Translations under genes and position numbers: made by a program
Source: Mustelus asterias
Taxonomy: Eukaryota
NCBI RefSeq assembly: GCF_964213995.1
Contig: NC_135819.1
Span: forward strand, 61,566,001-61,630,000
Direction: 5' to 3'
DNA: 64,000 nt
Notes under the pieces: model-generated
Seen by the model: only the letters and a program-made list of their open reading frames with translations
What the model was told of the DNA's origin: nothing
The model's database searches: none
Part shown: one piece after another, positions 27,801 through 63,500 of the stretch
How the letters are laid out: the number at the start of each line of letters is the position of its first letter
How positions within the stretch are numbered: the stretch's first letter is position 1

Positions 27801-30800
27801 TGTGTGGCCCGGAAGGTGCTGCCTCCTACTGTTCTATAGGCCAGCCACCTGCTGGTCCCTTGCATATGGAAGGGAGAATCACAGCTGAGCTTTGTTTTAT
27901 CTTTGTCTAACTTTTGTGGCCCAGTGATTAAGAACAGGATCCTTGAATGATCCTACTCTGTCCAGCATCCCCAGTTCAGGGATACTGAGCCTTGTTTTGA
28001 TGATATGCAAGCTGAGCACAATAGCAGGGTACCTGCTTTCTCGGTAATGCACTCTTGGGTAAGATCGATACAGTTCACTATTAATCACAGTGAAATACCT
28101 GATGCAGAAGGCCCTTCGTTCTCATAGGTCAGATGCCCAGTCCACAACTCTCCAGCTGAAAGTCTGGTCAACAGCCCCCAATCACCGCCCTGTTTGTAAT
28201 ATTTATTAATGATCTGGATGAGGGTATAGTTGGGTGGATTAGCAAATTTGCTGATGACACCAAAGTCGGTGGTGTGGTAGACAGTGAGGAAGGGTGTCGT
28301 AGTTTGCAGGAAGACTTAGACAGGTTGCAAAGTTGGGCCGAGAGGTGGCGGATGGAGTTTAATGCGGAGAAGTGTGAGGTAATTCACTTTGGTAGGAATA
28401 ACAGATGTGTTGAGTATAGGGCTAACGGGAGGACTTTGAATAGTGTGGAGGAGCAGAGGGATCTAGGTGTATGTGTGCATAGATCCCTGAAACTTGGGAA
28501 TCAAGTAGATAAGGTTGTTAAGAAGGCATATGGTGTCTTGGCGTTTATTGGTAGGGGGATTGAATTTAGGAGTCGTAGCGTTATGTTGCAACTGTACACA
28601 ACTCTGGTGCGGCCGCACTTGGAGTACTGTGTGCAGTTCTGGTCCCCACATTACAGGAAGGATGTGGAGGCTTTGGAGAGGGTGCAGAGGAGGTTTACCA
28701 GGATGTTGCCTGGTATGGAGGGGAGATCCTATGAGGAGAGGCTGAGGGATTTGGGATTGTTTTCGCTGGAAAGGCGGCGGCTAAGAGGGGATCTTATTGA
28801 AACATATAAGATGATTAGAGGTTTAGATAGGGTGGATAGTGATAGCCTTTTTCCTCTGATGGAGAAATCCAGCACGAGGGGGCATGGCTTTAAATTGAGG
28901 GGGGGTAGTTATAGAACCGATGTCAGGGGTAGGTTCTTTACCCAGAGGGTGGTGAGGGATTGGAATGCCCTGCCAGCATCAGTAGTAAATGCGCCTAGTT
29001 TGGGGGCGTTTAAGAGATCCGTAGATAGGTTCATGGACGAAAAGAAATTGGTTTAGGTTGGAGGGTCACAGTTTTTTTTTTTAACTGGTCGGTGCAACAT
29101 CGTGGGCCGAAGGGCCTGTTCTGCGCTGTAATGTTCTATGTTCTATGTTCTATGTTCTAACTCCAATCAACTTGCACATTTTTCTGAGCGTTTTGAATTT
29201 CTATCTCCAAGTAGTCTCCATTATAGCTGACAATGGAATATGTGTTTCCTCTCCTGGTATAGAGAAACAAGCATCCTAACTCTCCTAGTATGCAGCTGCA
29301 AAAGTAATTTAAAGTTGCTGTGGCATAACCAAACTACCAGTTAAATAAGCAGGATGTAGACATTGTAATCTGAAAGCAGATGAATCCTCCAGGTCCATGA
29401 CATTTGTTGTCTGGAAACGGGCAGACACTTGGACCAGTTTGTGTTAAAACACTTTACCCAGGTGCCCTTACTCATGACATGGACAAAGGACAAGACTCTG
29501 TCTGGGGAGCAACCCAAATTTTCTTAACAAATCCTTCACTATTCAAAAACAACTCTTAACTTCCCAGAGTAACTTAATACTTCATGCTATTTATCTGAGA
29601 TTTCTGATACCACCTGTGCCGATGATCTTGGCCGAGCTGCTGGGCCTGGTTCGCTGAGCTCTGCCATCTTCAAACCCAGGGTCATCTTGGCGAAGGTTGG
29701 TCTCGCACACCTTCTTCCATCGTCACTGGGTCTCCCCTTAGTCTTCGCTGTAGGTCGAGTCTTTGCTGGGGGTCGAGTTGAGTCTTTGCTGAGGGTGGTC
29801 TCCAGATCTCTCCTCTTATCCCCCACTTCGCACCCTTCTGGAAGATTCTCTGGCTTCCAGCCAATGAGGTCACCGGGCGGGGGTCACAGCACCGAATCGG
29901 GTTCCCAATTCCATATATGGAGAATGCCAGAGCCCCCAGGTGTCCATTCTTGGGTGTATGAGATGCACGTAGCCGCTTTCCATATAGGGTGACGGTGGGA
30001 ATCCGAGGTGCCAGAGAGTCTGGCCAAAACTGGGGAATACACGAGTACTGTCCTTATTTGCTCAGGGCTGAGCGCTTCCGGTTCCAGCTACCAGGGCAAG
30101 TCCAGGCTTGTCTCTGACCTGTGCCTGTGTTTTAAACTTGCCCTGTCTGAATTCTCAGTGGAGGCTGTTGACTGCTGTTTATTAAGCCGTTAGCCACTTG
30201 ACCACACACGCCATATCTTTTTATATCCAATTCCTCCCCCATCTCCTGAAGGACTTGCTTGAATTTAAAAGCTGGCTGAAGTCAGGCTGCCACAGGCTGC
30301 CACAACCAGCCTCAATGATCTTAAGCCCCAGAAAGAGACCAAAATCTTGGATCCTTGGATCCTGCTCCTCACCATCCAGTGCCTCCGCCAGCTGCAGTGC
30401 AATTATATCAATACCAGTTGTCCACAGTACAGGGCTCACTCGTATTACTGAGGCAAACATCTTACAACACTCAGTGAAACATTAGCTCACTCCACTCAAG
30501 CCAGGAATCACATTTGGGACCTTGCAGTATGTTCCTGAATACAGTTGTGGAACTGTTGGAATCGAGGATTGGAGCGTGTTCAGGGCTTGGAGCAGAGAGT
30601 TGGGATGGATTTGGGGCGAATGGTGGGGCCAGGGTGGCTGAGGCAGTGGGTGGGCTGTGCCCAATTCTGGTGACTTGTTTTGAATAAGTAAGTGGGTGCA
30701 TTATATTGCTTGTGTGCTCCCCCACACCCCAGTCCTGGATCTCTTTAGCTCTTTAGTTGTTTCCATTAAGAGCTGTCTGTGAGAATAATCTCGACAAAGC

Positions 30801-33800
30801 CTTCAATATATGTTCTTACCTCAGGTCCCACAGGAGGTGATGGTGATGACGACGGTGATGCCGATGGTGGTTTCTTTCCACCTTTGGTAGAGGGCGAGGT
30901 GGTTCAGGAACATATTACACATCAGAAGGTCAGTGCTGGTTTGGGATGGGGTCTGAAGAATAGAGAATGTGTACAGTAGACTGGTACTAAATTGTGTCAA
31001 CTGTTGGTATAATTCCTACTCCATGTCCCTGCAGGCTGTTGGTGAAGATCGAGGTTACATGCTGCGTCAGAGGGGGCCAACAGTGCCTGACAGGGTGCAC
31101 AGCAAGGTAATGTCAGCAAATCCTGCAAACAGTTTTCCTGTGCTTCATTTCAAAAGAGAACTGCAGAAAGTCAGAAATCACAACAGAAAAGATGAGCCCA
31201 GCTCAGTCAGCCCTGCAAAGTCCTTCTCACCAGCATCTGGGTACCTGTACCAAAATTAATGGGGCTGCTCAAAACATACCCACCAGCTGGTGTCCCAGGT
31301 ACCTCTCCCACTGGCAGGACAGACCAACCAGAGGGATTGGCTCAGGAATCCTCAATGTTGACTCCAGTTTCCGTGATCGGGTCAAACGTGGCGAAGGAAA
31401 CGGGGATGAGAAATTTCTGCCATTTGGTGAAATTCTGGACACTTGGATGAAGAATTCCACCTTTTAAAATAATTTCCCCAACTCCGTGGGTGGGGCGGTA
31501 CATGCGAGTGTGAGAGTGGGGCAGTGCAGTAGGTGTGTGACTTTGTGCCGTGCACCATCGATGTGTTTGCGTGCATGGAAAAAAGGGGGGTTTCTCTGAG
31601 TCTTCTGTAACCAGGAGGTATGAAGAGCTTGGTTGAAACCTAGTAGTTCCATCTATTTGAAGCATTTGCATTCTGCTACAGAGGATAAAAAGTGGTATAA
31701 TTACATGGTTCCTTGTCACAAAAAATTTCAAACCTTTTTGTTTTTAGCCAGTCTTGTTCTTGAGGAAGTATCCTGCTGATTAAATTAGTACTCTTCACGT
31801 TGACAGCACTTGGAAAAAGCACTGAGGGTAGCAAGGGCACTGAATGTATTCTGGGGGACTTCAATGTCCTTCACCAAGAATGGTTTGGTAGCACCCCGAC
31901 TGAGCTGGTTGAGTCCTGAAGGGGACAGCTGTGAGACCAGGCCTATGTCAGATGTCGAGTCAACCACTTTGAGGAGCAAGTCTCCTTGACCTTGCTCTTG
32001 GATATCTAGCTGTCACAGATATACCTGTCCATCACAGTGTTGATGTTCTGTGGAGAAAAGTCCTGTGTTCACACTGAAAACCCCATCGGTCATGTTGGGT
32101 GGCACTACTACTGTGATAAATGGGATAGATTTAGACCGCAGAAACTTTAAACATCCATGATGTGGACCATCATTGGCAGCAAAATTGTATTCCATCCCAA
32201 TGTGGAACCTCATGACTTGGTGTATCCTTCACCTTGCCATTATCATCAGTCAGTTCAGTGAAGAGTCGAGAAGAGCATGTCAAGAGCAGCACTAGGTGCA
32301 CCGATTGATTAGGTGTCTGCTTGATGCACTGAGGACAGGCAGCATGGTGACACAGTGGTTAGCACTACTGCCTCAGTGCCAGGGACCCGGGTTTGCTTCC
32401 AGCCTCTGTCACTGTGTGGAGTCTGCATATTCTCCCTGTGTTTGCTTGGGTTTCCTCCTGGTGCTCCGGTTTCCTCCCACAGTCCAAAGCTGTGCGGGTT
32501 AAGTTGATTGGACATACTATGTTGCCCCTTAGTGTCAGGGGGATTAGCAGGGGTACGGGTATAGGGCCTGGGTGGGATTGTTGCTAATGCAGACTCAATG
32601 GGCCAAATGGCCTCCTTCTGCACTGTAGGGATTCAATGATTCTAGATGTATACTAAACATCATGCAATTAACAAAGCTAAGCAATCCCCCAATGTACCAA
32701 GCATTTCAAAGCCACATCCAGTTATGAATGGTGGTGGATGATACAATTAAACAGTCAGGAGTTGAATATTCCTAATCTCAGCAATGGCAAGAGCCCAGCA
32801 CATGCCTGCAAAAGATTACTTTGAAGCATATGGAGCCTTCAACCAAAAATGTAGAGTAGATATCAATGTTGGCCCACTCCTGAAGTCCCCACCATCAAAT
32901 GCCAGTCTTCAACCAGTTGATTCGATCCATGTAATATCAAGAAACAGTTGAATGCATGCATGCAGCAAAATGCTATGAGCTCTGACAACATCCCGCCTGT
33001 GGTGCAGAGGTTTTATGTTCTGGGATTACACAGGCCTCTAGTCAAGGTTTCAGCTGTAACACTGCGTCTACCCGGGAAAGTAGAACATTGCCCAGGTATG
33101 TTCTGCCCACAAGAAGCAAACAAATCCATTCGAGCCAATTATCATCGTATCATTCTGCCTTTTATCATCAGCAAAGTGACTGAAGTTCTGGTCAGCAGCA
33201 CTAACAAGGCCGAGTCTATGTTTCAAGTGTACTGCATAATGTGAATTGTAATCATAGGACAATGTAACATAGAAGATGGCTGTTTGAAAGAGTCAATGAA
33301 CACGAGATATGCCAAAGGGAAATCCCAGTCAGTCCCACTTAGAAACCATAGAACCATAGAAAATTACAGCTCAGAAACAGGCCTTTTGGCCCTTCTTGTC
33401 TGTGCCGAACCATTTTTTGCCTAGTCCCACTGACCTGCACTTGGACCATATCCCTCCACACCCCTCTCATCCATGAACCCGTCCAAGTTTTTCTTATCTG
33501 GCAGCTCATTCCACACTCCCACCACTCTCTGCGTGAAGAAACCCCCCCCTAATATTCCCTTTAAACTTTTCTCCTTTCACCCTTAACCCATGTCCTCTGG
33601 TTTTTTTCTCCCCTAGCCTCAGCGGAAAAAGCCTGCTTGCATTCACTCTATCTATACCCATCAAAATCTTATACACCTCTATCAAATCTCCCCTCAATCT
33701 TCTACACTCCAGGGAATAAAGTCCCAACCTATTCAATCTCTCTCTGTAACTCAGCTTCTCAAGTCCCGGCAACATCCTTGTGAACCTTCTCTGCACTCTT

Positions 33801-36800
33801 TCAACCTTATTTACATCCTTCCTGTAACTAGGTGACCAAAACTGTACACAATACTCCAAATTCGGCCTCACCAATGCCTTATATAACCTTACCATAACAC
33901 TCCAACTTTTATACTCGATACTCCGATTTATAAAGGCCAATGTACCAAAGGCACTCTTTACGACCCTATCCACCTGTGACGTCACTTTTGGGGAATTCTG
34001 TACCTGTATTCCCAGATCCCTCTGTTCAACTGCACTCTTCAGAGTCCTACCATTTACCCTGTACGTTCTTCTTTGGTTTGTCCTTCCAAAGTGCAATATC
34101 TCACACTTGTCTGCGTTAAATTCCATTTGCCATTTTTCAGCCCATTTTTCTAGTTGGTCCAAATCCCTCTGCAAGCTTTGAAAACCTTCCTCACTGTCCA
34201 CTACACCTCCAATCTTTGTATCATCAGCAAACTTGCTGATCCAATTTACCACATTATCATCCAGATCATTGATATAGATGACAAACAACAATGGACCCAA
34301 CACCGATCCCTGCGGCACACCACTAGTCACAGGCCTCCACTCAGAGAAGCAATCCTCTACAACCACACTCTGGCTTCTTCCATTGAGCCAGTGTCTAATC
34401 CAATTTACTACCTCCCCATGTATACCTAGCGACTGAACCTTCCTAACTAACCTCCCATGAGGGACCTTGTCAAAGGCCTTGCTGAAATCCAGGTAGATAA
34501 CATCCACCGCCTTCCCTTCATCCACTTTCCTGGTAACCTCCTCGAAAAACTCTAATAGATTGGTCAAACATGACCTACCACACACAAAGCCATGTTGACT
34601 CTCCCTAATAAGTCCCTGTCTATCCAAATATTTGTAGATCCTATCCCTTATCACACCTTCCAATAACTTGCCCACCACCACGTCAAACTTACTGGCCTAT
34701 AATTTCCCGGATTTCTTTTGGAACCTTTTTTAAACAACGGAACAACATGAGCCACCCTCCAATCATCCGGCACCTCCCCCGTGAATACTGACATTTTAAA
34801 TATGTCTGCCAGGGTCCCTGCAAGTTCAACACTAGCTTCCCTCAAGGTCCGTGGGAATACCCTGTCTGGTCCTGGGGATTTATCCACTCTGATTTGCCTC
34901 AAGACAGCGAGCACCTTCCATGAACTCCCTACCTGTTTGCCCTATTTCCGTAGACTCCATGCCCGTTTCCTCAGTAAATACGGATGCAAAAAAACCATTT
35001 AGTATCTCCCCCATCTCTTTTGGTTCCATACACAGTCTACCACTCTGGTCTTCAAGAGGACCAATTTTATCCCTCACTATCCTTTTGCTCCTAACATACC
35101 TGTAGAAGCTCTTTGGATTTTCCTTCACTCTGTCTGCCAAAGCAACCTCATGTCTTCTTTTAGCCCTCCTGATTTCCCTCTTAAGTAGCTTCTTGCACTT
35201 TTTATACTCCTCGAGCATCTGATCTGTTCCTTGCTGCCTGTACATTTCATACAACTCTTTCTTCCTCTTAATCAGTGTTACAATCTCCCTCGAGAACCAA
35301 GGTTCCTTATTCCTATTTACTTTGCCTTTAATCCTGACAGGAACATACAAATTCTGCACTCTCAAAATTTCTCCTTTGAAGGCCTCCCACTTTCCATTTA
35401 CATCCTTACCAGAGAACAGCCTGTGCCAATCCACACTTCTCAGATCCCTTCTCATTTCATCAAATTTGGCCTTTTTCCAGTTCAGAACTTCAACCCGAGG
35501 ACCAGATCTATCTTTATCCATAATCAGGTTGAAACTAATGGCATTATGATCACTGGATCCAAAGTGTTCCCTCACACTCGCATCCATCATCTGCCCTAAC
35601 TCATTTCCCAATAGGAGATCCAATATCGCATCCTCTCTAGTTGGCACCTCTATATACTGATGTAGAAAATTCTCCTGAACACGTTTTACAAACTCTACCC
35701 CGTCTAAACCTTTAACAGTATGCGAGTCCCAATCTATATGTGGAAAATTAAAATCCCCTACTATCACAACTTTGTGTTTCTTGCAGTTGTCAGCTATCTC
35801 TCCGCTGATTTGCTCCTCCAATTCTCGCTGACTATTGGGTGGTCTATAATACAACCCCATTAATGTGGTCATACCTTTCCTGTTTCTCAGCTCCACCCAT
35901 AGGGCCTCTGTAGACAAGCTCCCTAATCTATCCTGCCTGAGTACCGCTGTAACATTTTCCCTGACCAACAATGCCACCCCCCCACCTTTTATCCCTCTGC
36001 CTCTATCCCGCCTGAAACATTGGAACCCTGGAACATTGAGCTGCCAGTTCTGCCCTTTCTGTAGCCAAGTTTCACTAATGGCTATAATGTCATATTTCCA
36101 TGTGTCTATCCACACCTTCAGCTCATCTGCCTTCCCCACAATACTCCTGGCATTGAAATAGACACACCTCAAAAGATTATTTCCACCACACTCAACCCTT
36201 CCCTTTGTGATTTTGCTTGAACTAACCTGTCTTTTTACCCCTGCTCCACTATCTGCTCTGGCACTCTGGTTCCCACCCCCCTGCAAATCTAGTTTAAACG
36301 CTCCCCAATAACACGAGCAAATCTCCCTGCAAGTATATTGGTCCCCTTGTAGTTTAGGTGTAACCCGTCTCTCTTGTACAGGTCCCACCTGCCCCAGAAG
36401 AAGTCCCAATGATCCAAGAATTGGAAACCTTGCCCTCCTGCACCAGTTCCTCAGCCACGTGTTCATCTGCCCAAGCATCCTACTCCTGCCCTCACTGGCA
36501 TGTGGCTCAGGTAGCAATCATAGAAACCCTACAGTGCAGAAGGAGGCCATTCGGCCCATCGAGTCTGCACCGACCACAATCCCACCCAGGCCCTACCCCC
36601 ACATATTTACCCGCTAATCCCTCTAACCTACGCATCTCAGGACTCTAAGGGGCAATTTTTAACCTGGCCAATCAACCTAACCCGCACATCTTTGGGCTGT
36701 GGGAGGAAACCGGAGCACCCGGAGGAAACCCACGCAGACACGAGGAGAATGTGCAAACTCCACACAGACAGTGACCTGAGCCAGGAATCGAACCCGGGAC

Positions 36801-39800
36801 CCTGGAGCTGTGAAGCAGCAGTGCTAACCACTGTGCTACCGTGCCGCCCAACTGTGCTACCGTGCTGCCAATCCTGAGATTACTACCCTCGGGGTCCTGC
36901 TTTTTAACTTCCTTCCAAGCTCTTTGTACTCACTCTTTAGGACCTCCTCACTCTTCCTTCCTACGTCATTTGTACCGATGTGTACCACAACATCTGGCTG
37001 ATCACCTTCCCACTTTAGAATGCTGTGCACGCGATCAGAGACATCGCTGACCTTGGCACCTGGGAGGCAACAAACCATGCGGGAGTCTCTGTCCCGACCA
37101 CAGAACCTCCTGTCCGTACCTCTGACCATTGAGTCCCCTATCACTACTGCTCTCCTCTTCTTCATCCCACCCTTTTGCGCTGTAGAACCAGACTCCGTAT
37201 CAGAGTTCCGGCTGTCGCAGCTTGTCCCAGGTAAAGCATCTCCCACAACAGTATCCAATTCAGTATACCTGTTGTGGAGGGGTATGGCCACAGGGGAACC
37301 CTGCTCTGTCTGTCCTTTCACATTGCCATTTCCTCTCCTTACAGTAACCCAATTTCCTGTGCTCTGCTGCTTAGGTGTAACTATCTCCCTAAAGCTACTG
37401 TCTATATACTTCTCATTCTCCCGAATTAGATGGAGGTCATCAAGCTCCTTCTCCAGTTCCCTAACACGCTTTGCTAGCAGCTGCAGCTGAATGCATCTTT
37501 TGCAGGTGCTGTCGTCAGGGATACCGGAGGTCTCCCTGATCTCCCACTTCCTTGCCATTTCCCCCATGTCCCTGCATTTTTTTCCCCAATTTCCTTTTCA
37601 AGGCTGTGTTGAATCTGTTTCCACTCCCTCACCAGGCAGCATTATCCAAATCCTAACCATTTGTTTCCTTATGCTGCTTCTAGTTCTTTTGCCAATCACT
37701 ATAAATCTTCATCCTCTGGTGAAATACGCTTCAGCATCTGTAAACAGTTTCTGCCTGATAAGGGAGTGAAAACAGAGTGGAAACCATTTTTGGGTCCAGC
37801 AGGAATTGTATCTAATTCTGGACACCACATTTTATGAAGAACTTGAAGACTTTGGACAAAGAAAAGATTTACTAGAATGATTCTGGGGTTTGTTCTGGGG
37901 TAAAGGATTATAGTTACGTGAATAGGCTGGAAAAGCTTTCTTTTTAGAATAAAGGAGGCCAATAAAACCATAAAGGTGGCTTCTGCATGTCATCCATATT
38001 TCTGAGCCATCTTGAAGAGTTAGGTGGAAGACTGACTTATACGCGATTCTCTTCTGAGTGTGTGAAGATGACATTAACACATACTGAGCCACAAGCGATC
38101 TCAGTTTTGTTTTCTTGGATTTCAACCAGTTGAGGTTGAAAAGTTTTCTGTCCATCCTGTAGACGATGTCCATTCCGCTGGGAAGCTTGTTCTTGACAAG
38201 GTGAAGGATGGTGGTGATGGAGAAAAGGGTGGGGGGCAATAACACATCCCTGCTTGACTCCAGACTTGATATCAAAGATTTCTGTCCTTATTTCTGTTGG
38301 TAAGAACTGCTGCTAACATCTTTTTGTGGAGGAGTCGGAGGATGTTGATGAATTTCTTTGGACAGCCAGCCTTTAACAGGGTCTTCCATAGGAATTCCCA
38401 ATGGACTGAGTCAAAAGCCTTGATCAAATCAATGAAGGCCATGTAGAGTGGTTGAAGTTGTTCCTGGCATTTCTCTTGAAGCTGTCGAGCAGTGAAAATC
38501 ATGTTTGCTGTTCCACAGTTTGGTCGGAAGCCACGCTGGCTTTCTGGAAGGATTTCTTCAGAGACTGGGAGAAGGTGGCTAATGAGGATTTGGGTGATTA
38601 TCTTCCCAGTGATGGAGAAAATATGGAGACAAGTGCTGAAGATTGATCTGGTGGGGCCTTGAACACAGTAATGGATTGAGTGATTGAGACAGATGCAGAA
38701 TTTAACCCAAGTAGGGTGAGATTCTCGGAGTGGAGCAGGGGGAATTTGGTGGACTCAAGCACCACTCCAGAAACTTTTGAGCAATTAATTCACTGACATT
38801 TTGGGGTATTGCTGAAGGACTGCTACACAGGAGGGCCATTGGTCATGGAGTGCTGCACTGTCAGAGGGATGTGCTGTCTTAATCCTTCAATTAACATCAA
38901 AACCAGTTAATCTGATCATGTATCTCCTTGCTGTTTATGGATCTTGCTGTCTGCAAATAGCTGGCACGTTGAATACAACTATCTAAATGCAAGTTCTCTT
39001 TCTCTTACTGATTGTTATTCTTGCTTCTTTGCGTATAGGAAGTGCTCGACCCTTGGAGGAGCCTGGATCCTTTTGAAGCCACAGAAGACAAGCCATTCAA
39101 GAAAGGTACTTTATTGAATATGCCCAGATTCCATCTCAACAATGCCAGAGCTCTGTTGAGAGGGAGGAAATCCAGGCATGGAGACTTAACCTCAAACAGC
39201 GTTTCTTAGATTCAACAGGGAATATCAATGGCCTTTTCAAGGGGCAAGCTGGGGTGGGGTAATGACCGAGTGGCAGCTGTCTGATTGTTCCATCATTCTC
39301 TGTATATGCCTTTCCCCCTGCCCGCCTGTTATATCTACTTCAAGGAACACCATGATTGAGATTTGAGCACTTCTGTTGCTAACCTGTACCTCAATTACCC
39401 TCTTTTTAAATTGCTGATCACGTTGGCAGAACGGTGTACAGGCTAGCAGAGAGTGAGTTGCAGTTTGCAGTAAAACACTTGTGTGAATGCAGCTGTGTAG
39501 TGCCAATGAGAAGGTGCAGCTGAACAGTTCGAGGAGGTGAGAACTATCAGATTGGGAAGGATAGTCTGCGCCTGACTGCAGAGCATTTGTATTAGTTCCC
39601 CTGTTACTAGTTATTATCTCACCTGGAGAGTCTATGTGAGGGAGTTTGGGCTGAGAGTGATGCTGAACCAGGGAGGATACTACAGCTGAGTCTGCCTTAC
39701 TGCAAGCACCTTCTAGAACAGTGATTGGAAGATGACCACCATCTCAAATTTAGAACTAGGTTGTTCAAAAATGATGTCAAGAAGCACATTTGGAGCATCG

Positions 39801-55073: not shown

Positions 55074-56130
55074 AAGAACATAAGAACTAGGAGCATCTGG
55101 CCCCTCGAACCTGCTCCTCCATTCAATAAGATCATGGCTGATCTTTTGTGGACTCAGCTCCACTTACCTGTCCGCTCACCATAACCCTTAATTCCCTTAC
55201 TGTTCAAAACTTTATCTATCCTTGCCTTAAAAACATTTAATGAGGTAGCCTCAACTGCATCACTGGGCAGGGAATTCCACAGATTCACAACCCTTTGTGT
55301 GAAGAAGTTCCTCCTCAACTCAGTCCTAAATCTGCTTCCTCTTATTTTGAGGCTAGCCCCCTAGTTCTAGTTTCACCTGCCAGTGGAAACAACTTCCCTG
55401 CTTCTACATTATCTATTCCCTTCATAATCTTATATGTTTCTATAAGAACTCTGAATTCCAATGAGTATAGCCTCAGTCTCTCCTCATAAGCCAACCCTCT
55501 CAACTCCAGAATCAACCTAGTGAATCTCCTCTGCATCCCCTCCAGTGCCAGTATATCCTTTCTCAAGGAAGGAGACCAAAACTGTACACAGTACTCCAGG
55601 TGTGGCCTCACCAGCACCTTATACAGCTGCAACATAATCTCGCTGTTTTTAAACTCCATCCCTCTAGCAATGAAGGACAAAATTCCATTTGCCTTCTTAA
55701 TTACCTGCTGCACATGCAAACCAACTCCTTGAGATTCCTGCACAAGGACACCCAGGTCCCTCTGCACAGCAGCATGCTGCAATTCTTTACCATTTAAATA
55801 ATAGTCCATTTTGCTGTTATTTCTACCAAAATGGATGACCTCACATTTACCAACATTGTACTCCATCAGTCTCTTAGAGCCTGCTCTACCATTCAATAAG
55901 ATCATGGCTGATCTGGCTGCGATCTCTACTCCAATTTCCTGTCTGCCTCCCATAACCTTGATACCCTTGACTATCAAAAATTGGTCTTAACTCTGCCTTG
56001 AATAAATTCTATGATCCAGCCTTCACTGCTCTCTGGGGAACAGAATTCCACATACTAACGACTTTCAGAGAAAATAAATTCTCACCTCAGTCTTAAAAGG
56101 GAGATCTATTGGTCTTAAACTGTGTTGCCT
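55074..56130 (-). mobile_element. Two adjacent CR1 LINE 3' fragments
   Basis: [14 protein letters not shown]...[15 protein letters not shown]; taagaacataagaa tail. Confidence 0.85.
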
Positions 56131-56545: not shown

Positions 56546-56744
56546 AACTCAGCAGGTCTGGCAGCATCTGTGGAGTGAGAAACAGAGTTAACATTTTGAG
56601 TCCATATGTATATGACTTGAAACATTAACTCTGTTTCTCTCTCCACAGATGCTGCCAGACTTGCTGAGTTGATTCAGCATTTTCTGTTTTTATTTCAGAT
56701 TTCCAGCATCTGCTGTATTTTGCCTTTATTTGAGTGGTTTCTGC

Positions 56745-57170
56745 CAATGTCAGCTGTGGCTCAATTGGCAGCAGTCTTGCTGGAGTCAGATGATTGTAGA
56801 TTCAAGTCCACTTCAGGACTTGAGCACAAAACTCAAGACTGATACTTTAATGCAGTACTGAGGGAGCGCTGCATTGGTGGAGGTGCCATCTTTTGGATTA
56901 GACATAAAACCAAGGCCTCAGCTGCCTCTTTGGTGAACTATTTAATAGAAGAACCAGAGATTTATCTCTGGTGTCCTGACCAATTTTTATTCCTCAATCA
57001 GCATCACAAAAAACAGTTTCTGATCATCATCATATTATTATTTTGTGAAGTTTAAAGCAAGAAAATTGGCTGCTGCAATTCTTATATTACAACAATTGAA
57101 AAGTACTTCAGTTGTAAAGCACTTTGGGACGATCTGAGGTCATGCAAGTTACAATGCAAATGCAAGTCCT
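56745..57170 (+). mobile_element. DeuSINE/SacSINE1-like SINE
   Basis: Similar to 2270-2690. Confidence 0.65.
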
Positions 57171-57244
57171 TTTACATTGTTCTTAAAAATTCCATTCCTA
57201 TAACTGACGCTGGCACATATATTCTCCAAGAACCTTATTTGTCA

Positions 57245-58481
57245 TCAACTGAAGAGATTAACATAGGTTTTCATATGGCTGCGGATACTCTCAGCAATTT
57301 CCTGATCACTTTTATTCCTATTGTAGTAATCAGTAAAAAGCCCATCTGGGTTTAGAAGGTAGATTATGATGGTGTGGTCCACAATGTAATCATTGTCTTC
57401 ATCCTTGGGACCGGCACTGTAATATACCCGGAATGCCTTCCCCATCTCTTTAATCTGTTCGGCGGTCCCTGTCAGCCCCACCATGCGAGAGTGGAAATCC
57501 TTGATATACCGTGCCATCTCCTCTACCCCATCTCTCTCTGGATCCACTGTGATGAAGACGGGTTGAACTGGAGGCAGTGCTCTCTCCTTGTCTAAGATCT
57601 GCACAACGCTGGTTATCTTATCCAGCTCATCAGGACAGATGTCAGGGCAGTGAGTGAACCCAAAGTATAGCAGCACCCACTGGCCAAAGAAGTCCTTCTT
57701 GGTTCTGGATCTTCCAGTGTGATCCAGCAATTTGAAGTCGCCTTGACCAAGTGTTAACTTCTTTAGCTGTTCCTGGCGTTTCACCTTTTGCTGCTGCTCC
57801 TTTTCCAAGTGGACATAGAACCACAATCCCATTATTATCGTCCCAAAGAGACATATCACCATGAACTTAGTCCGCAGTCTGACCGGAGGGCTCACTACTG
57901 GCTTCTCTGAGCTTCTATTTGAGTTGGACTGTGAGAATGATCTGTGGGTCAGAAGTGTTGAACTGCCCAGACTAATATACACAATTTTGGGAGCCAGAGG
58001 GTAAATGTTGAGTAAGCTGCGGGTCATCAATTGCCTTCCCTGAGCTTGGAACTGTAGCTTCTTTATTGTGTGCTGACTTGGTGCTTTGCAAATTGTTAAC
58101 TGTGGGATAAATTGCACACTTTCCAATGGACAGTCCGGATGAGCTGCTGTGATCGGAGCTGCCGGGATAGTTAAGCTCTCAGTGAGCAATCCTCCTCCAT
58201 TGATAGAGTATAATCGGTTAGTGCCCATGTGGTCCAACATCTTTTGGCTGCAAACAGTGATTACAGATGGAGATTGTAAACGCCATCTCTCCCCTTGCCT
58301 AGTCCTGTGAGTTTTTGCTCGAGGGTGCCCTTTGCTGAGGCAGCTGGCATGCCGCAGGGCCGCTCCGCCATGAGTGCCCACATCTCCACTCCAGCAGATC
58401 ACTGGTTTCAGGAGGCTGCCGCTGACCAGCAGCTGCCAGCGTGAAGCGTAGCCTCTCAAACTCACAAACATCCCGGCAAAC
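57245..58481 (-). CDS. SCO2: Cytochrome c oxidase assembly protein SCO2, main coding exon
   Basis: TM helix [18 protein letters not shown]; thioredoxin-like SCO domain with [14 protein letters not shown] (CxxxC), [14 protein letters not shown]; uninterrupted domain exon and position next to NCAPH2 indicate SCO2 rather than SCO1; acceptor ttccctccgcag at 58482. Confidence 0.95.
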
Positions 58482-58631
58482 CTGCGGAGGGAAAGAGATC
58501 AAATCACAAAGATCCCGCGGCAAAACCTCACTCAACCGAGACCCACACCGACTCCAACGCACACACTCGGGAAACGCAGGCTGCGCGGCCTCCAGCCCCG
58601 CACACTCCCGCCGGCCCGCTCCGCCGTGTAC

Positions 58632-58696
58632 CTCCATCCAACGGCGGCTCTCGATCCCAGCATCGCCACTGCCTGGTGCCCCCGGGCCGCCGCCAT
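58632..58696 (-). CDS. SCO2: Probable SCO2 coding exon 1 (MAAARGHQAVAMLGSRAAVGW-R)
   Basis: ATG in AAAATGGCG context at 58696; donor GAG|gtacac at 58631; 150-nt intron joins in frame to main exon giving 433 aa. Confidence 0.6.
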
Positions 58697-58815
58697 TTTC
58701 CCGGTATTTTCAGGAACCGGCCGCCTCTCCCCGGTGAACTACAACTCCCGGCAGGCCGTGCGGGCGCGCATGCGCGGAGAAGAAAAACACCCGGATTCGG
58801 GCAACGGGTAAGAGC
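58690..58815 (-). promoter_or_regulatory. SCO2 CpG-island promoter with ZNF143-type, NRF1 and YY1 motifs
   Basis: ACTACAACTCCCGGCAGGC 58738-58756; GCGCATGCGC 58766-58775; CGCCATTTT 58691-58699. Confidence 0.75.
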
Positions 58816-58821
58816 GGGAAA

Positions 58822-60510
58822 CCAGAGAGAGAAAAATAACCCCCAAACCCTGAATGAAAAATAACCCCCAAACCCGGAGAGAAAAATAACCCCCAAACCC
58901 TGAGAGAAAAATAACCCCCAAACCCTGAGAGAAAAATACCCCCCAAACCCTGAGAGAAAAATAACCCCCAAACCCTGAGAGAAAAATACCCCCCAAACCC
59001 TGAGAGAAAAATAACCCCAAACCCTGAGAGAAAAATAACCCCAAACCCTGAGAGAAAAATAACCCCCAAACCCTGAGAGAAAAATAACCCCCAAACCCTG
59101 AGAGAAAAATAACCCCCAAACCCTGAGAGAAAAATAACCCCCAAACCCTGAGAGAAAAATAACCCCAAACCCTGAGAGAAAAATAACCCCAAACCCTGAG
59201 AAAAATACCCCCCAAACCTTAGTGAAAAATAACCCCCAAACCCTGAGAGAAAAATAACCCCAAACCCTGAGAGAAAAATAACCCCAAACCCTGAGAGAAA
59301 AATAACCCCAAACCCTGAGAGAAAAATAACCCCCAAACCCTGATAGAAAAATAACCCCCAAACCCTGAGAGAAAAATAACCCCAAACCCTGAGAGAAAAA
59401 TAACCCCAAACCCTGAGAGAAAAATACCCCCCAAACCCTGAGAGAAAAATAACCCCCAAACCCTGAGAGAAAAACACCCCCCAAACCCTGAGAGAAAAAT
59501 AACCCCCCAGGTCGGTGGTGACGTTCACGAGGGGTCATAGGATCAAGGTGAAGGGGGGGATGTTTAACACAGATATCAGAAGGACATATTTTACACAGAG
59601 GGTGGTGGGGGTCTGGAATGCGCTGCCAGGCAAGGTGGTGGAGGCGGACACACTGGGAACATTTAAGACTTATCTAGATAGCCATATGAACGGAGTGGGA
59701 ATGGAGGGATACAAAAGAATGGTCTAGTTTGGACCAGGGAGCGGCGTGGGCTTGGAGGGCCGAAGGGCCTGTTCCTGTGCTGTATTGTTCTTTGTTCTTT
59801 AAACCCTGATAGAAAAATAACCCCCAAACACAGAGAAAAAATAACCCCCAAACCCAGAGAGAAAAATGACCCCCAAACCCTGAGAGAAAGAAACCCCCAA
59901 ACCCTGAGTGAAAAATAACCTCCAAACCCTGAGAGAAAAATACCCCCCAAACCCTGAGAGAAAGATACCCCCCAAACCCCTGAGAGAAAGATACCCCCCA
60001 AACCCCTGAGAGAAAGATACCCCCCAAACCCCTGAGAGAAAGATACCCCCCAAACCCCTGAGAGAAGGAAACCCCCAAACCCTGAGAGAAAAATAATCCA
60101 CAAACCCTGAGAGAAATAAACCATGAGAGAAAAATAACCCCTAAACCCTGAGAGAAAAATAACCCCTAAACCCTGAGAGAAAAATAACCCCTAAACCCTG
60201 AGAGAAAAATAACCCCTAAACCCTGAGAGAAATAACCCCCCAAACCCTGAGAGAAAAATACCCCCAAACCCTGAGAGAAATAAACCCCCAAAACTCAAGA
60301 GAAAGAAAGCCCCAAATGCTGAGAAATAAACACAAATTCTGGGAGAAAAAAATCCCAGAGAGAAGCCTCCAAACCCTGAGAGAGAGAAAACCCTCAAACC
60401 GAAGAAAAAACCCAAACCCCGAGAGAAAGAAACTCCCAAACCTGAGAGAGAGAACCCCAATCCCGAAACAGAATAACCCCCAAACCTCAAGAGAGATAAA
60501 ATCCCCAAAC
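58822..60510. repeat. 24-26-bp minisatellite (AAAAATAACCCCCAAACCCTGAGAG)n, split by a CR1 insertion
   Basis: Dozens of units directly visible at 58822-59508 and 59801-~60500. Confidence 0.95.
59510..59800 (+). mobile_element. CR1 LINE extreme 3' end
   Basis: TRGHRIKVKGG...[13 protein letters not shown]; (ttgttct)n tail. Confidence 0.9.
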
Positions 60511-60522
60511 TGTGAGAGAGAT

Positions 60523-63500
60523 ATGTTATATATTTAGATAGTTAAAAGATTGCTGTAAGATCAGGTCACATGATTTGATGGGGTCAGTTAGCTCAGTTGA
60601 CTGGATGGCTGGTTTGTGATGCAGAGTAACAACAACAGCTTGGGTTAAATTCCCATACTGGCTGAGGTTATTCATAAAGGCTCACTCTCTCAACCTTGCC
60701 TGAGGTGTAGTGATCCTCTGGTTAAATCAGCACCAGTCAGCTTTCCTCCTCAAAGGGAAGAGCAGCCAGTGGTCATCTGGGCCTATGGCGATATTACTTA
60801 CTTCATATGATTTGATGGTGACATCATTGGGGTGTTTCAGAGGCTCCTGCTTTTAGTTTAAGTTTGTCCTCTTGAGCAGGCAACAGTTCCTTCAATAAAT
60901 CTGTTGTTAGTTTGAATCTATGTGTGCAAACCACATCTTTTCTTTTTATTAAAATCCACAACCCTTAACATAGGACATTACAAAATGAAAATTGGTGACA
61001 AGTAAGGACTTCGTTTTGTCAAAAATATCGAAAACAATTCTTAGAAGAGAAAAATATTGTGGGTCCCCTCACACTTTGAATATGAGAAGGCTGTGGAGAA
61101 GCAACAGCAGGATTAAAGATCGAAGTGCCAGAAGGAAGACCAGAACAAAAAACCTCAGTGAGTGGTTTTAAAAGAGGGTTTCATTCTGATCAGAGAAGGG
61201 CGAAATTCCAGGTAGTAACTGGCATATTTGAAAAGAAGGAATGTTTTGCTGTACAGCTGGGGTCGTTTGAAATAAAATACATCAAGTCAACGGTCCCCAG
61301 GGTAAAAAGGGGAGTACTGGGAAGACAGTAAAAAAAATATACTGAGCAGTCTCAAGTCACTAGTATCTGCAGGAGAAATGATGGGTCAATTAGGATCCAT
61401 GGGCCCTTTCAATTAAGAAAATGAATCATGGAGTTCCTTTGCTGAGAGTTTTCAATACGTTGTACAAGCGATAAAAATGAATGATGAGTTGCTCATACCA
61501 GTGTTTCTCAGTACAGTAGGAAGTAAAATCTTCAATTTGTTCCGCAACTTGGTTTATCCAGTGAAGCCAGAAACCAAAACTTAGGATGGCTTAACAAAGC
61601 CCCTTGAAGAGCATTACTCTCCAAAGCCACAGATCATTGCGGAATGGCTCAGATTCCACCAAAGGAATCAAGTTGAAGGTGAAATCATCGCTCAGTTTGT
61701 GGCAACCTTAAAAACGCTGGCATACATTGTAAGTTTGGTGAGTCATCAGAACATACTGTTCAAGATCATCTAGTTTGTGGTCTCCAAAACAAGGCTATCC
61801 AACGAAGATTGCTTATTAAGCATGCTTTGACTTTAAAGGCTGCAGTCAAAATCAGTGTCGATGGAACTGGCAGGAATGAAGATCCACAAGTTGAAAATGG
61901 CCCACATAGTGTCAAAACAGCAACAAGCATGTCACAGATGTGCCAAAAGGGATCATTCAGCAAGTGAATGCAGGAGTAAGGTTAGCCAATACAAGAATTG
62001 TGGCAAAATGGGTCACATTTCAAAAGCTTGTTGGACTAGACCAATTTCCCTTGAGAAGAATACTCAGAAGATGATTATGGGTACATTCAAGAAGAACAAG
62101 TTGCATTCTACAAAAATAATTTACAACATGGAAGAAAAGAATTACGACTATGAAGAAGAGAACATCCAGAAATATGACAAAGAGCTCCAAATGAACATCT
62201 TATCCATACAGGGTGGATCACAGATTCTGGGTGATTCTGAAGCGGACAACATATTAGGATAGAGGCTGATACTGGTGCTGCTGTATCTTTAATTCCTGAG
62301 ACCACGTACCAACAAAAGCTGAAGCATCTTTCTTTAAAACTAGCTGATGTGATTTTAAGGACATACACGGAAGAGATTGTGCCATGAAAAGGTTACATCA
62401 TGTAGAGTTAAGTGGACTAACAGTGAAGTTGCCTCCCGATGTGGTCCGAGACAATTTTCCAGCTATATTTGGCAGATCGTGGTTGAAGAAGAAAAAGCTT
62501 AACTGGAGAGCTGTCAATAGATTGGTTGATGTCAAAATAGACCTGCAGTACCTTCTGGATAAATACAAGAGTGTATTCAAAGAGAAACTGGACACAATGA
62601 AGGGAGTTCATGTGAAAGTTAAAAGTCTAATAGTCAACCAAAATGTCTCAAATGAAAAGCAGTGTAATTCGCCCTAAGGTCGAAGAAGAATTAGTGTGAC
62701 TTGTTAACACTGGTGTGTTAGAGTCGATTACAATGAGTGACCCCAATCCTACCTGTCATGAAACCAAATGGTTCAGTTCGTATTTGTGGTGATTTTAAAA
62801 CAACCATAAATCCGCTGTTTTGTGCTGATCAATTTCCGCTTCCTTTAATTTAAGATTTGTTTGTTGGGTTATCAGTCGGCAGAAATTCAGCACGATTGAT
62901 CTTTCTCAAGCATGGTTACAGAATAATGTAACTGCTGAATCTCAACCATTGCTTACCATTGTTACTCATAAAGGTCTGTCTCATTATAAAATATTGCATT
63001 TTGGAATAACGTCCTTACTAGCCCTATTCCAGAGATCGATGGATCAGATTTTAAGTGGTGTTTCCGGTATACAATGTTACCTGGATGATATCCTAATTAC
63101 AGGTTCAAGTAAACAAGAGCACTTGAATAATTTAGAAGCAATATTGGAACATCTTCAAGCACATGGTCTGCGTATCAAGAAAGAAAAATGTAATTGTTTT
63201 TCCAGACATCAGTCCAGTATTTGGGTCATGTTATTGATAGTAAAGGCCTACATAAAGCACCTAAAAAGATGCACACTATTTTAGAAGCACCACGTCCGAC
63301 TAATGTGACACAATTGAGGTTCTTTCCAGGATTAGTAAATAATTATGGCAAATTTGTTGCTAACTTAGCTATGTTATTGAACCCATTGCATGATTTATTA
63401 TGTGTGAAACATTCATGGGACTGTACAACAGTATGTGAGAAAGCATGCAAGGATGTCAAAGATGCTTTGTAGAAGTCCAAAGTAATGGTTCAATTTAATC

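What the first reader, a model, noticed from the sequence alone, without database searches (positions are those of the whole stretch)
57245..58696. SCO2 with a ~170-aa N-terminal extension and two tandem presequence-like segments
Seen: the SCO2 frame stays open 148 codons upstream of Met at 58027. A CpG-island ATG (58696) splices in frame over a 150-nt GT-AG intron to give 433 aa beginning [35 protein letters not shown], which is Arg-rich, lacks acidic residues and ends in an R-x-Y-A cleavage-like motif. A second presequence-like stretch, MTRSLL...THRSF|SQ, starts at 58027 and alone would give 260 aa. Known: human SCO2 is 266 aa with a non-coding exon 1, and MPP-cleaved tandem mitochondrial precursors exist (yeast Arg5,6; S. 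pombe Rsm22-Cox11). Inference: either a lineage-specific long matrix-side extension, a precursor releasing an extra ~140-aa peptide, or dual translation starts. I recognise no domain in the extra segment.
Basis: partly seen in the sequence, partly recalled or inferred. Interest (0 to 1): 0.7.

Follow-up and report, generated by a model that had tools for sequence, protein, structure and literature searches.

The report
Shark SCO2's extra-long mitochondrial import leader
The mitochondrial copper chaperone SCO2 of this shark carries an open, spliced N-terminal stretch of about 180 to 200 amino acids that is shared with other sharks and rays, changes about as fast as unconstrained sequence, and is likely one very long import signal that is cut off, not a second protein.

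Summary
The extension is real. The 150-nt intron is skipped in contigs of 5 of 7 runs laid and the spliced frame gives 433 aa. All 20 named shark/ray SCO2 models aligned carry a homologous leader (161-182 aa in 19, 108 aa in one); neutral simulation never kept all frames open (0/1000). The conserved start is the exon-2 ATG (58471; Met in 19/21 rows), not 58696 (a relative has a stop at codon 8) and not 58027 (Met in 4/21, weak context, 11 upstream AUGs). The leader evolves about 5x faster than the core, has no more invariant columns than neutral simulation, tolerates large deletions, is predicted disordered and has no homologue elsewhere. Best reading: a single, very long cleavable presequence; tandem precursor and dual start are not supported. 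Bony fish, amphibians and reptiles already have 70-120-aa leaders, so sharks are the long extreme. Cleavage itself is untested.

The parts
58738..58775 (-). Promoter motifs: NRF1-type GCGCATGCGC palindrome (58775-58766) and ZNF143/SBS-type element (58749-58738); motif identities recalled, not from a database
   Evidence: pattern match; CpG island
58632..58735 (-). Exon 1 (5' end as far as contigs reach); carries in-frame ATGs at 58696 and 58663 that add 25 or 14 poorly conserved residues
58691..58699 (-). AAAATGGCG: strong-context ATG 58696 inside a TISU/YY1-like element; ATG kept in X16 and X7, but its frame hits TAG at codon 8 in X7
   Evidence: TISU core described in PMC2518114 section 5
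58482..58631 (-). Intron 1, 150 nt, GT-AG; 144 nt in X2/X6 and 143 nt in X7; intron-retaining contigs in 5 of 7 runs
58469..58471 (-). Conserved start codon (M26 of the 433-aa form), 10 nt into exon 2; Met in 19 of 21 aligned rows, the other two start 4-6 columns downstream
57935..58471 (-). Long leader M26-F204 (179 aa), predicted cleavable presequence; net charge +14; predicted disordered; near-neutral amino-acid evolution with frame kept open
58025..58027 (-). Met174: internal ATG, not a conserved start (4 of 21; context TTG-ATG-A)
57935..58027 (-). Distal 31 residues of the leader, almost free of D/E in all species (0.6-0.7% vs about 3% simulated, P 0.04-0.06): likely MPP-recognition / internal MTS-like segment
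57932..57943 (-). R202-S-F204|S205, predicted MPP (+ICP55) site; R-x-F-S in 20 of 21 elasmobranch rows; 95 residues before the first Cys of CxxxC
   Evidence: human N-terminus after residue 38 in PMC13672106 suppl. file 6
57809..57865 (-). Single hydrophobic membrane anchor (residues 228-246)
   Evidence: sequence; helix in model
57338..57742 (-). SCO1-SenC (PF02630) thioredoxin-fold copper-binding domain with CPDIC motif
57245..58481 (-). Coding part of exon 2 (uninterrupted leader, anchor and catalytic domain)
56694..57244 (-). 3' UTR; AATAAA at 56991, 56730, 56694; contigs run on to about 56925 and 56694 if colinear

Best explanation
This is the shark's single SCO2 gene, whose spliced mRNA has an open frame of 408 aa from the conserved exon-2 ATG (433 aa from the exon-1 ATG), and whose first ~180-200 residues likely form one very long, disordered mitochondrial presequence that is predicted to be removed in the matrix at R-S-F|S205, leaving a normal-sized SCO2. 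Steps: (1, shown) transcription from a CpG-island promoter and splicing of a 150-nt intron; (2, inferred from conservation) initiation at or just upstream of the 5' end of exon 2 - M26 across sharks and rays, with M1/M12 from exon 1 probably used as well in this species because they come first and M1 has a strong context; (3, inferred from the family) the basic, acid-poor leader is threaded through TOM/TIM23 until the hydrophobic anchor stops transfer, leaving the CxxxC domain in the intermembrane space; (4, inferred from motif conservation and the human N-terminus) MPP cuts two residues after R202 and ICP55 trims F204, giving a 229-aa mature protein starting SQS; (5, inferred from near-neutral evolution) the released leader is degraded and has no job of its own. 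Selection keeps the frame open, keeps a Met at the exon-2 start, and keeps the last ~30 residues acid-free, but hardly constrains the rest, so the leader drifts in length (38 aa human, about 70-120 aa bony fish/amphibians/reptiles, 161-182 aa most elasmobranchs, 108 aa sevengill shark).
For: Frame open and alignable in 20 of 20 named elasmobranch models; neutral simulation 0 of 1000, about 53 nonsense changes expected. At DNA level X16 has 4 indels in 245 nt of 3' UTR and none in 1237 nt of coding exon 2; three relatives have 6-7 nt of indels in the intron and none in the coding part covered. R-x-F-S at one column in 20 of 21; equivalent R..[FLY]-S-Q motifs 92-100 residues before the Cys in many bony fish, amphibian and reptile hits. 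Human SCO2 mature N-terminus measured after residue 38 (PMC13672106 suppl. file 6), 94 residues before the first Cys versus 95 for S205 here. Tree length 5.4 substitutions/site in the extension, 4.2 in the distal 31 aa, 1.0 in anchor plus core; gamma alpha 9.9 vs 0.53; 12 near-invariant columns observed vs 10.7+-3.5 simulated; pN/pS leader 0.65-0.89 (15 N, 7 S) vs core 0.32-0.46 (5 N, 4 S) against X1. Deletions of 12, 19 and about 70 residues tolerated. pLDDT below 30 over residues 1-170 of the 408-aa model. No homologue outside elasmobranch SCO2 among 1.84 billion representatives, no Pfam match, single copy in the genome, no internal duplication.
Against: No cleavage, import or protein N-terminus was measured. 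The first 20 residues from M26 are a weak presequence (net charge 0 to +3; 0 in six rays; hydrophobic moment 0.19-0.41) and the model shows no helix there (a low-confidence model from a 21-row alignment). The human site does not have Arg at -2/-3 (it is at -5), so the match is positional. 161-204 aa is far beyond the usual 20-40 aa (PMC13672106 section 6). pN/pS rests on 22 and 9 changes in one pair and does not separate the regions statistically. The comparative set is automated protein models, which can only show open frames; no chimaera sequence was found, and one 194-aa ab initio model (P0157) and one 333-aa model (P0122) of species-level relatives start further downstream.
Confidence: 0.7

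Rival explanations
1. The leader is translated and imported but only partly removed (or not at all), so shark SCO2 keeps a long disordered matrix-side tail.
For: Frame conserved across sharks and rays; no direct evidence of cleavage; other R-x-[FYL]-[SA] motifs occur sporadically in 12 of 21 leaders.
Against: R-x-F-S is conserved in 20 of 21 at the position of the human mature N-terminus; flanking 31 aa are selectively acid-free; the tail has no conserved positions that a binding function would need.
Confidence: 0.12
2. Tandem precursor: MPP cuts after a short N-terminal presequence and again at R-S-F|S, releasing a stable ~145-175-aa matrix peptide with its own function, as in Arg5,6, Atp25 or Rsm22-Cox11.
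For: Acid-poor stretches at both ends of the leader (D+E 1.6% in residues 26-40, 0.6-0.7% in 176-205); an internal MTS-like segment with an MPP motif marks the junction of known tandem precursors (PMC8734313, passages); a few columns (W88, C99, K163, F166) are nearly invariant.
Against: First site in 3 of 21 and lost in close relatives; invariant columns no more than neutral; Cys content equals the random expectation (3.8% vs 3.8%); no fold, no family, no homologue; about 70 residues missing in Heptranchias.
Confidence: 0.07
3. Two translation starts: a long form from 58696/58471 and a human-like 260-aa form from 58027; or the long frame is only an open 5' UTR.
For: 58027 gives a 260-aa protein with a 31-aa acid-free N-terminus ending in R-S-F|S; the ATG is kept in close relative X1; some other species have a Met within a few residues of this position or 15-45 residues before the cleavage site; leader pN/pS is near 1.
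Against: Met in that column in 4 of 21; Pristis and Heptranchias have no Met after residue 28 and 1 of the leader, Cetorhinus and Carcharodon none after 82; weak context and 11 upstream AUGs; a UTR would not stay free of stops and frameshifts (0 of 1000 simulations; indel contrast).
Confidence: 0.08

Closest known systems
Human SCO2 (O43819), COX2 copper chaperone
   Same: Presequence - single anchor - CxxxC thioredoxin domain; mature N-terminus expected at the same distance from CxxxC (94 vs 95 residues); catalytic region in one exon (human exon layout recalled).
   Different: Leader 179-204 aa instead of 38; canonical R-3 motif; in this species exon 1 carries in-frame ATGs.
Elasmobranch SCO2 RefSeq models (e.g. 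XP_041059520.1 Carcharodon, XP_078409280.1 Cetorhinus, XP_055509198.1 Leucoraja; 395-411 aa)
   Same: Homologous leader from the exon-2 Met to R-x-F|S; the long form is already in automated annotation.
   Different: The 25 exon-1 residues of the window's 433-aa form are not found in them; their X1 isoform extensions are mutually unrelated.
SCO2 of sturgeon, bichir, lungfish, coelacanth, caecilian, turtles, lizards
   Same: Long leader (about 90-120 aa) ending in a similar R..[FLY]-S-Q motif.
   Different: Not alignable with the shark leader or between clades (HHalign probability under 1%); 60-90 residues shorter.
MPP-processed tandem precursors (yeast Arg5,6 and Atp25; S. pombe Rsm22-Cox11; PMC8734313 passages)
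   Same: Internal presequence-like segment with an MPP motif far from the N-terminus.
   Different: There the upstream part is a conserved folded protein; here it is unconstrained, predicted disordered and deletable.
Long presequences removed in one or two MPP steps (frataxin, mature from residue 81, PMC8835746 passage; O95202 115 aa in PMC13672106 suppl. file 6)
   Same: Extended basic leader discarded after import; stepwise cutting possible.
   Different: About 1.5-2 times longer than these and beyond the 120-residue limit used to call presequences in the human N-terminome study.

Membership tests
SCO2 (vertebrate SCO1/SenC family) | SCO1-SenC domain above Pfam cut-off | tested here: met
   PF02630 163.8 bits, E 2.6e-48
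SCO2 (vertebrate SCO1/SenC family) | CxxxC motif plus distal His, one membrane anchor N-terminal to the domain | tested here: met
   HCPDIC (C300) and VDHT in sequence, hydrophobic 228-246
SCO2 (vertebrate SCO1/SenC family) | Orthology to SCO2 rather than SCO1 | tested here: met
   Named top hits are SCO2 at 70-87%; the only other PF02630 locus in the genome is a split-exon gene on contig C12, read as SCO1; synteny not tested
Cleavable mitochondrial presequence (MPP substrate) | Arg at -2/-3 of the cleavage site | tested here: met
   R-x-F|S in 20 of 21 rows at one column; rule in PMC8835746 and PMC13672106
Cleavable mitochondrial presequence (MPP substrate) | Net positive charge, few acidic residues | tested here: met
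   Whole-leader net charge +7 to +20 in 21 of 21; but only the last ~30 aa are more acid-poor than neutral simulation
Cleavable mitochondrial presequence (MPP substrate) | Amphipathic helix at the N-terminus | tested here: inconclusive
   Best 18-residue moment 0.19-0.41, first 20 aa net 0 to +3; no helix in a low-confidence model; TargetP/MitoFates not available
Cleavable mitochondrial presequence (MPP substrate) | Removal after import, shown on the protein | not testable with these tools
   Only the positional match to the measured human N-terminus
Tandem (composite) mitochondrial precursor, Arg5,6/Atp25/Rsm22-Cox11 type | Upstream moiety is a conserved, folded, functional polypeptide | tested here: not met
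   Near-neutral evolution, large deletions, pLDDT <30, no family or homologue
Tandem (composite) mitochondrial precursor, Arg5,6/Atp25/Rsm22-Cox11 type | Conserved N-terminal MPP site that defines the upstream product | tested here: not met
   R-G-Y-[AS] in 3 of 21; altered in 5 of 5 close-relative runs
Tandem (composite) mitochondrial precursor, Arg5,6/Atp25/Rsm22-Cox11 type | Internal MTS-like segment with MPP motif at the junction | tested here: met
   Acid-free 174-204 plus basic 161-175 and R-x-F|S; iMTS-L score itself not computed
Dual-start (leaky scanning) mRNA | Conserved second in-frame AUG reachable by scanning | tested here: not met
   Met174 in 4 of 21, weak context, 11 upstream AUGs

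The most novel reading that the evidence does not exclude
The shark/ray SCO2 precursor is cut more than once and releases a stable 145-175-residue matrix peptide with an elasmobranch-specific role (for example coupling COX2 synthesis to copper loading), a vertebrate case of a composite mitochondrial precursor whose passenger works through composition rather than a conserved fold.
Probability: 0.07. Interest if true: 0.75.

Novelty: new variant of a known kind. Interest (0 to 1): 0.36.

Why it matters
If cleavage at S205 is confirmed, elasmobranch SCO2 carries a 160-200-residue presequence, well beyond the 20-40-residue norm and the 120-residue ceiling used in human N-terminome work, and gives a natural length series on one gene (38, ~70-120, 108, ~175, 204 aa) for asking where targeting information lies in very long leaders and how much dispensable sequence TIM23/MPP tolerate. 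It also shows that gene models trimmed to human length (260 aa) would be wrong for sharks. It does not point to a new protein or pathway; the long forms are already in automated annotation, though searches found no paper on them.

Tried and rejected
Word-indexed search with residues 1-160 of the exon-2 frame found nothing (136 candidates); this was a false negative, since searches returned clear homologues. No run on record as RNA was listed (18 'RNA?' guesses, 4 unknown); no conclusion on expression level or 5' ends is drawn from contigs. Four weak hits of the leader in the 1.84-billion library (P0153-P0156, E 3e-10 to 7e-5) are repeat-rich, apparently bacterial proteins with several short matches and were rejected as chance. 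Internal duplication as origin of the two segments: no DNA self-match above chance, profile-profile probability 0.8%. Transposon or paralogous origin: extension DNA matches only itself in the genome (the tool skips very common words). Homology of the leader with bony-vertebrate leaders: none detectable. Special structure of exon 1 RNA: z = -1.1, nothing notable. ESM Atlas gave no answer. A Pfam scan of the window's other ORFs failed on a strand slip and was not repeated; 19 ORFs were translated and read by eye instead, so synteny is untested. No chimaera SCO2 appeared among the 120 listed hits or 56 (of 1821 and 355), so the age of the expansion relative to chimaeras is open. Fold search and complex prediction were not run: the leader model is too unconfident and no binding claim is made. 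A paper on mouse/human/yeast mitochondrial N-termini was not held. Earlier scan notes: none bore on this.

Full report
OBSERVATION. On the minus strand the frame ending at 57245 is open to 58498. ATG 58696, in a CpG island, joins it in frame over a GT-AG intron 58631-58482; the product is 433 aa with Met at 1, 12, 26, 103, 107 and 174; Met174 (58027) alone gives 260 aa. The only Pfam match above cut-off is SCO1-SenC. The genome holds one copy of the extension and one other PF02630 locus, a split-exon gene on contig C12 that I read as SCO1. Closest named proteins are catshark and lamniform SCO2, so the window is from a shark; I did not try to identify the record.

SPLICING. Seven of the 22 runs listed were laid (X16 twice). 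Five show a contig that skips exactly these 150 nt with CT..AC ends on the plus strand (X21, X22, X16, X2, X7); X16 has 88 letters on the short side, the other four 26, under the tool's 31-letter rule. X21 and X22 are one sample identical to the window over exon 2. X1 had nothing over exon 1; X6 had only the intron-retaining form, which is also seen in X21, X22, X2 and X7. None is on record as RNA, and contigs cannot give starts or levels; exon-1 contigs end at 58733-58735 (X21, X22), 58717 (X16) and 58796 (X7).

IS THE EXTENSION CODING? The eleven best hits are elasmobranch SCO2 of 329-450 aa; cluster look-up (10 proteins) added more species. One model per named species (20) was aligned with the window (A2); left out were alternative isoforms, the 333-aa model P0122, unnamed Logan members and the 194-aa ab initio model P0157. 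The leader aligns end to end in all: 161-182 aa from the exon-2 Met to R-x-F in 20 of 21 rows, 108 aa in Heptranchias. Evolving the window's 148 codons neutrally on the same tree left a mean of 0.7 of 20 tips open and never all 20 (0 of 1000); about 53 nonsense changes were expected. The alignment has 26 distinct gap patterns (2 are start offsets) with alignable flanks. At DNA level X16 has 4 indels in 245 nt of 3' UTR and none in the 1237-nt coding exon; X2, X6 and X7 have 6-7 nt of small indels in the intron and none in the coding part covered. Caveat: protein models can only show open frames. I conclude that the leader is translated (inference, strong).

WHICH START? Met26 (58471, 10 nt into exon 2) is Met in 19 of 21 rows; Stegostoma and Rhincodon start 4-6 columns later. 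Exon-1-derived N-termini of the longer isoforms of Scyliorhinus, Heterodontus, Stegostoma, Chiloscyllium, Hemiscyllium and Leucoraja are unrelated to each other and to the window's 25 residues. Among close relatives ATG 58696 is kept in the two runs that cover it (X16, X7), without indels, but X7's single contig (depth 5.5) reads TAG at codon 8. The ATG lies in AAAATGGCG, one letter from the TISU core AAGATGGC, an element just downstream of transcription starts, enriched in mitochondrial genes and used as start codon in 64% of genes (PMC2518114, section 5 and one passage; YY1 binding recalled). So in this species the 433-aa form is plausible by scanning, but the 25 extra residues are labile. 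Met174 is Met in 4 of 21 rows, has T at -3 and A at +4, and 11 AUGs precede it on the spliced mRNA; four species have no Met in the last 90 residues of the leader. A 260-aa form is therefore unlikely.

WHAT IS THE LEADER? On a fixed tree, substitutions per site are 5.4 (residues 26-173), 4.2 (174-204) and 1.0 (228-433), with gamma alpha 9.9, 51 and 0.53; shark-ray identity 35%, 38% and 85% (core). Near-invariant columns: 12 observed, 10.7+-3.5 in stop-free neutral simulation (P 0.40); D+E 4.7% vs 5.9% (P 0.09); only 174-204 is more acid-poor than simulated (0.7% vs 3%, P 0.04-0.06) (300 runs each). Against X1 (34 coding differences typed), pN/pS is 0.65 (0.89 with kappa 4) in the leader and 0.32 (0.46) in anchor plus core, on 22 and 9 changes. 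Deletions of 12, 19 and about 70 residues occur. AlphaFold2 on A2 gives pLDDT 25-29 and no secondary structure for residues 1-170, with the SCO fold behind (shallow alignment, mean pLDDT 48). Phmmer over 1.84 billion representatives finds only a sawfish SCO2 full length plus four spurious repeat proteins. No internal duplication and no profile match to other vertebrate leaders. The distal R-x-F-S is in 20 of 21.

THE CLEAVAGE SITE. S205 lies 95 residues before the first Cys of CxxxC. In human N-terminomics SCO2 (O43819) has presequence length 38 (PMC13672106: passages, section 6, supplement rows and part 1 of 3 of file 6; 9 of 21 files not searched); counting on the sequence in that supplement, S39 is 94 residues before C133. 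The human site has Arg at -5, so the match is positional, but many fish, amphibian and reptile hits show R..[FLY]-S-Q at 92-100 residues. MPP needs Arg at -2/-3 (PMC8835746 passages), and F/L/Y left by MPP is trimmed by ICP55. Typical presequences are 20-40 aa and that study only counted starts at residues 5-120. Long presequences can import more efficiently (PMC12306757, passages and section 6).

CONTEXT. Of 103 Met-starting non-elasmobranch proteins among the 120 listed hits, the estimated leader has median about 70 aa; 60 are 60 aa or more, 22 are 90 or more, 1 is over 150 (a bichir model whose relative's model is 324 aa) (some models are probably truncated). Leaders do not align between clades. 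SCO2 leaders are thus generally long and fast-turning in non-mammalian vertebrates; elasmobranchs are the long end, humans the short end. How the shark leader grew is not shown; since the start stays at the 5' end of exon 2, internal insertion before the shark-ray split is the simplest inference.

COMPARISON. Member of SCO2: yes. Works like a long cleavable presequence: likely (0.7). Member of tandem precursors (Arg5,6, Atp25, Rsm22-Cox11; PMC8734313 passages): no - it has the internal MTS-like junction but fails the two features that define a second product. Dual start: not supported. In print: searches for SCO2/presequence/elasmobranch (20 of 51 listed), SCO2/zebrafish/targeting sequence/N-terminal extension (12 of 38) and SCO2+shark (3 of 3 irrelevant) showed no paper on this, judged from listings only; the long proteins are already in RefSeq as automated models. 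The scan's earlier notes held nothing on it.

VERDICT. Real feature, modest novelty: a new, extreme-length variant of a known kind. Interest 0.36; 0.75 in the unlikely (0.07) case that the released leader is a functional peptide.

Noticed in passing
window 58482-58631: Intron-retaining contigs in 5 of 7 runs laid, from four organisms; retention closes the exon-1 ATG frame after 54 codons (stop at 58532) and leaves ATG 58471 as the first productive start. Could be pre-mRNA or DNA.
   Followed up: partly
window 58738-58775 and 58691-58699: NRF1-type palindrome, ZNF143/SBS-type element and TISU/YY1-like element in the promoter and exon 1: a typical respiratory-gene promoter (motif identities recalled).
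   Followed up: partly
window about 58830-60500: Long minisatellite of a 22-24-nt unit directly upstream of the promoter; it produces long meaningless ORFs.
   Followed up: no
window 33506-37597 (-): Fairly intact LINE (CR1-like by recalled motifs): esterase-type ORF1, endonuclease and reverse-transcriptase frames of 246, 545 and 396 aa; further RT fragments at 19943-21199, 28160-29056 and 55342-55986.
   Followed up: no
window 61837-62262 (+): Fragment with two CCHC-type zinc-knuckle-like motifs, probably a retrotransposon gag remnant (read by eye).
   Followed up: no
P0011 (Heptranchias perlo SCO2): Unusually divergent SCO2 with the longest branch among the 21 and a leader shortened to 108 aa, keeping both ends: a natural internal deletion of the leader.
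   Followed up: partly
G000:C12:67236708-67242691: Split-exon PF02630 locus, probably SCO1; its transcript cross-maps to window 57621-57687 and explains the stray joint 57403-57621.
   Followed up: no
window (whole): The window holds 200 N (an assembly gap or mask), not inside the SCO2 gene.
   Followed up: no
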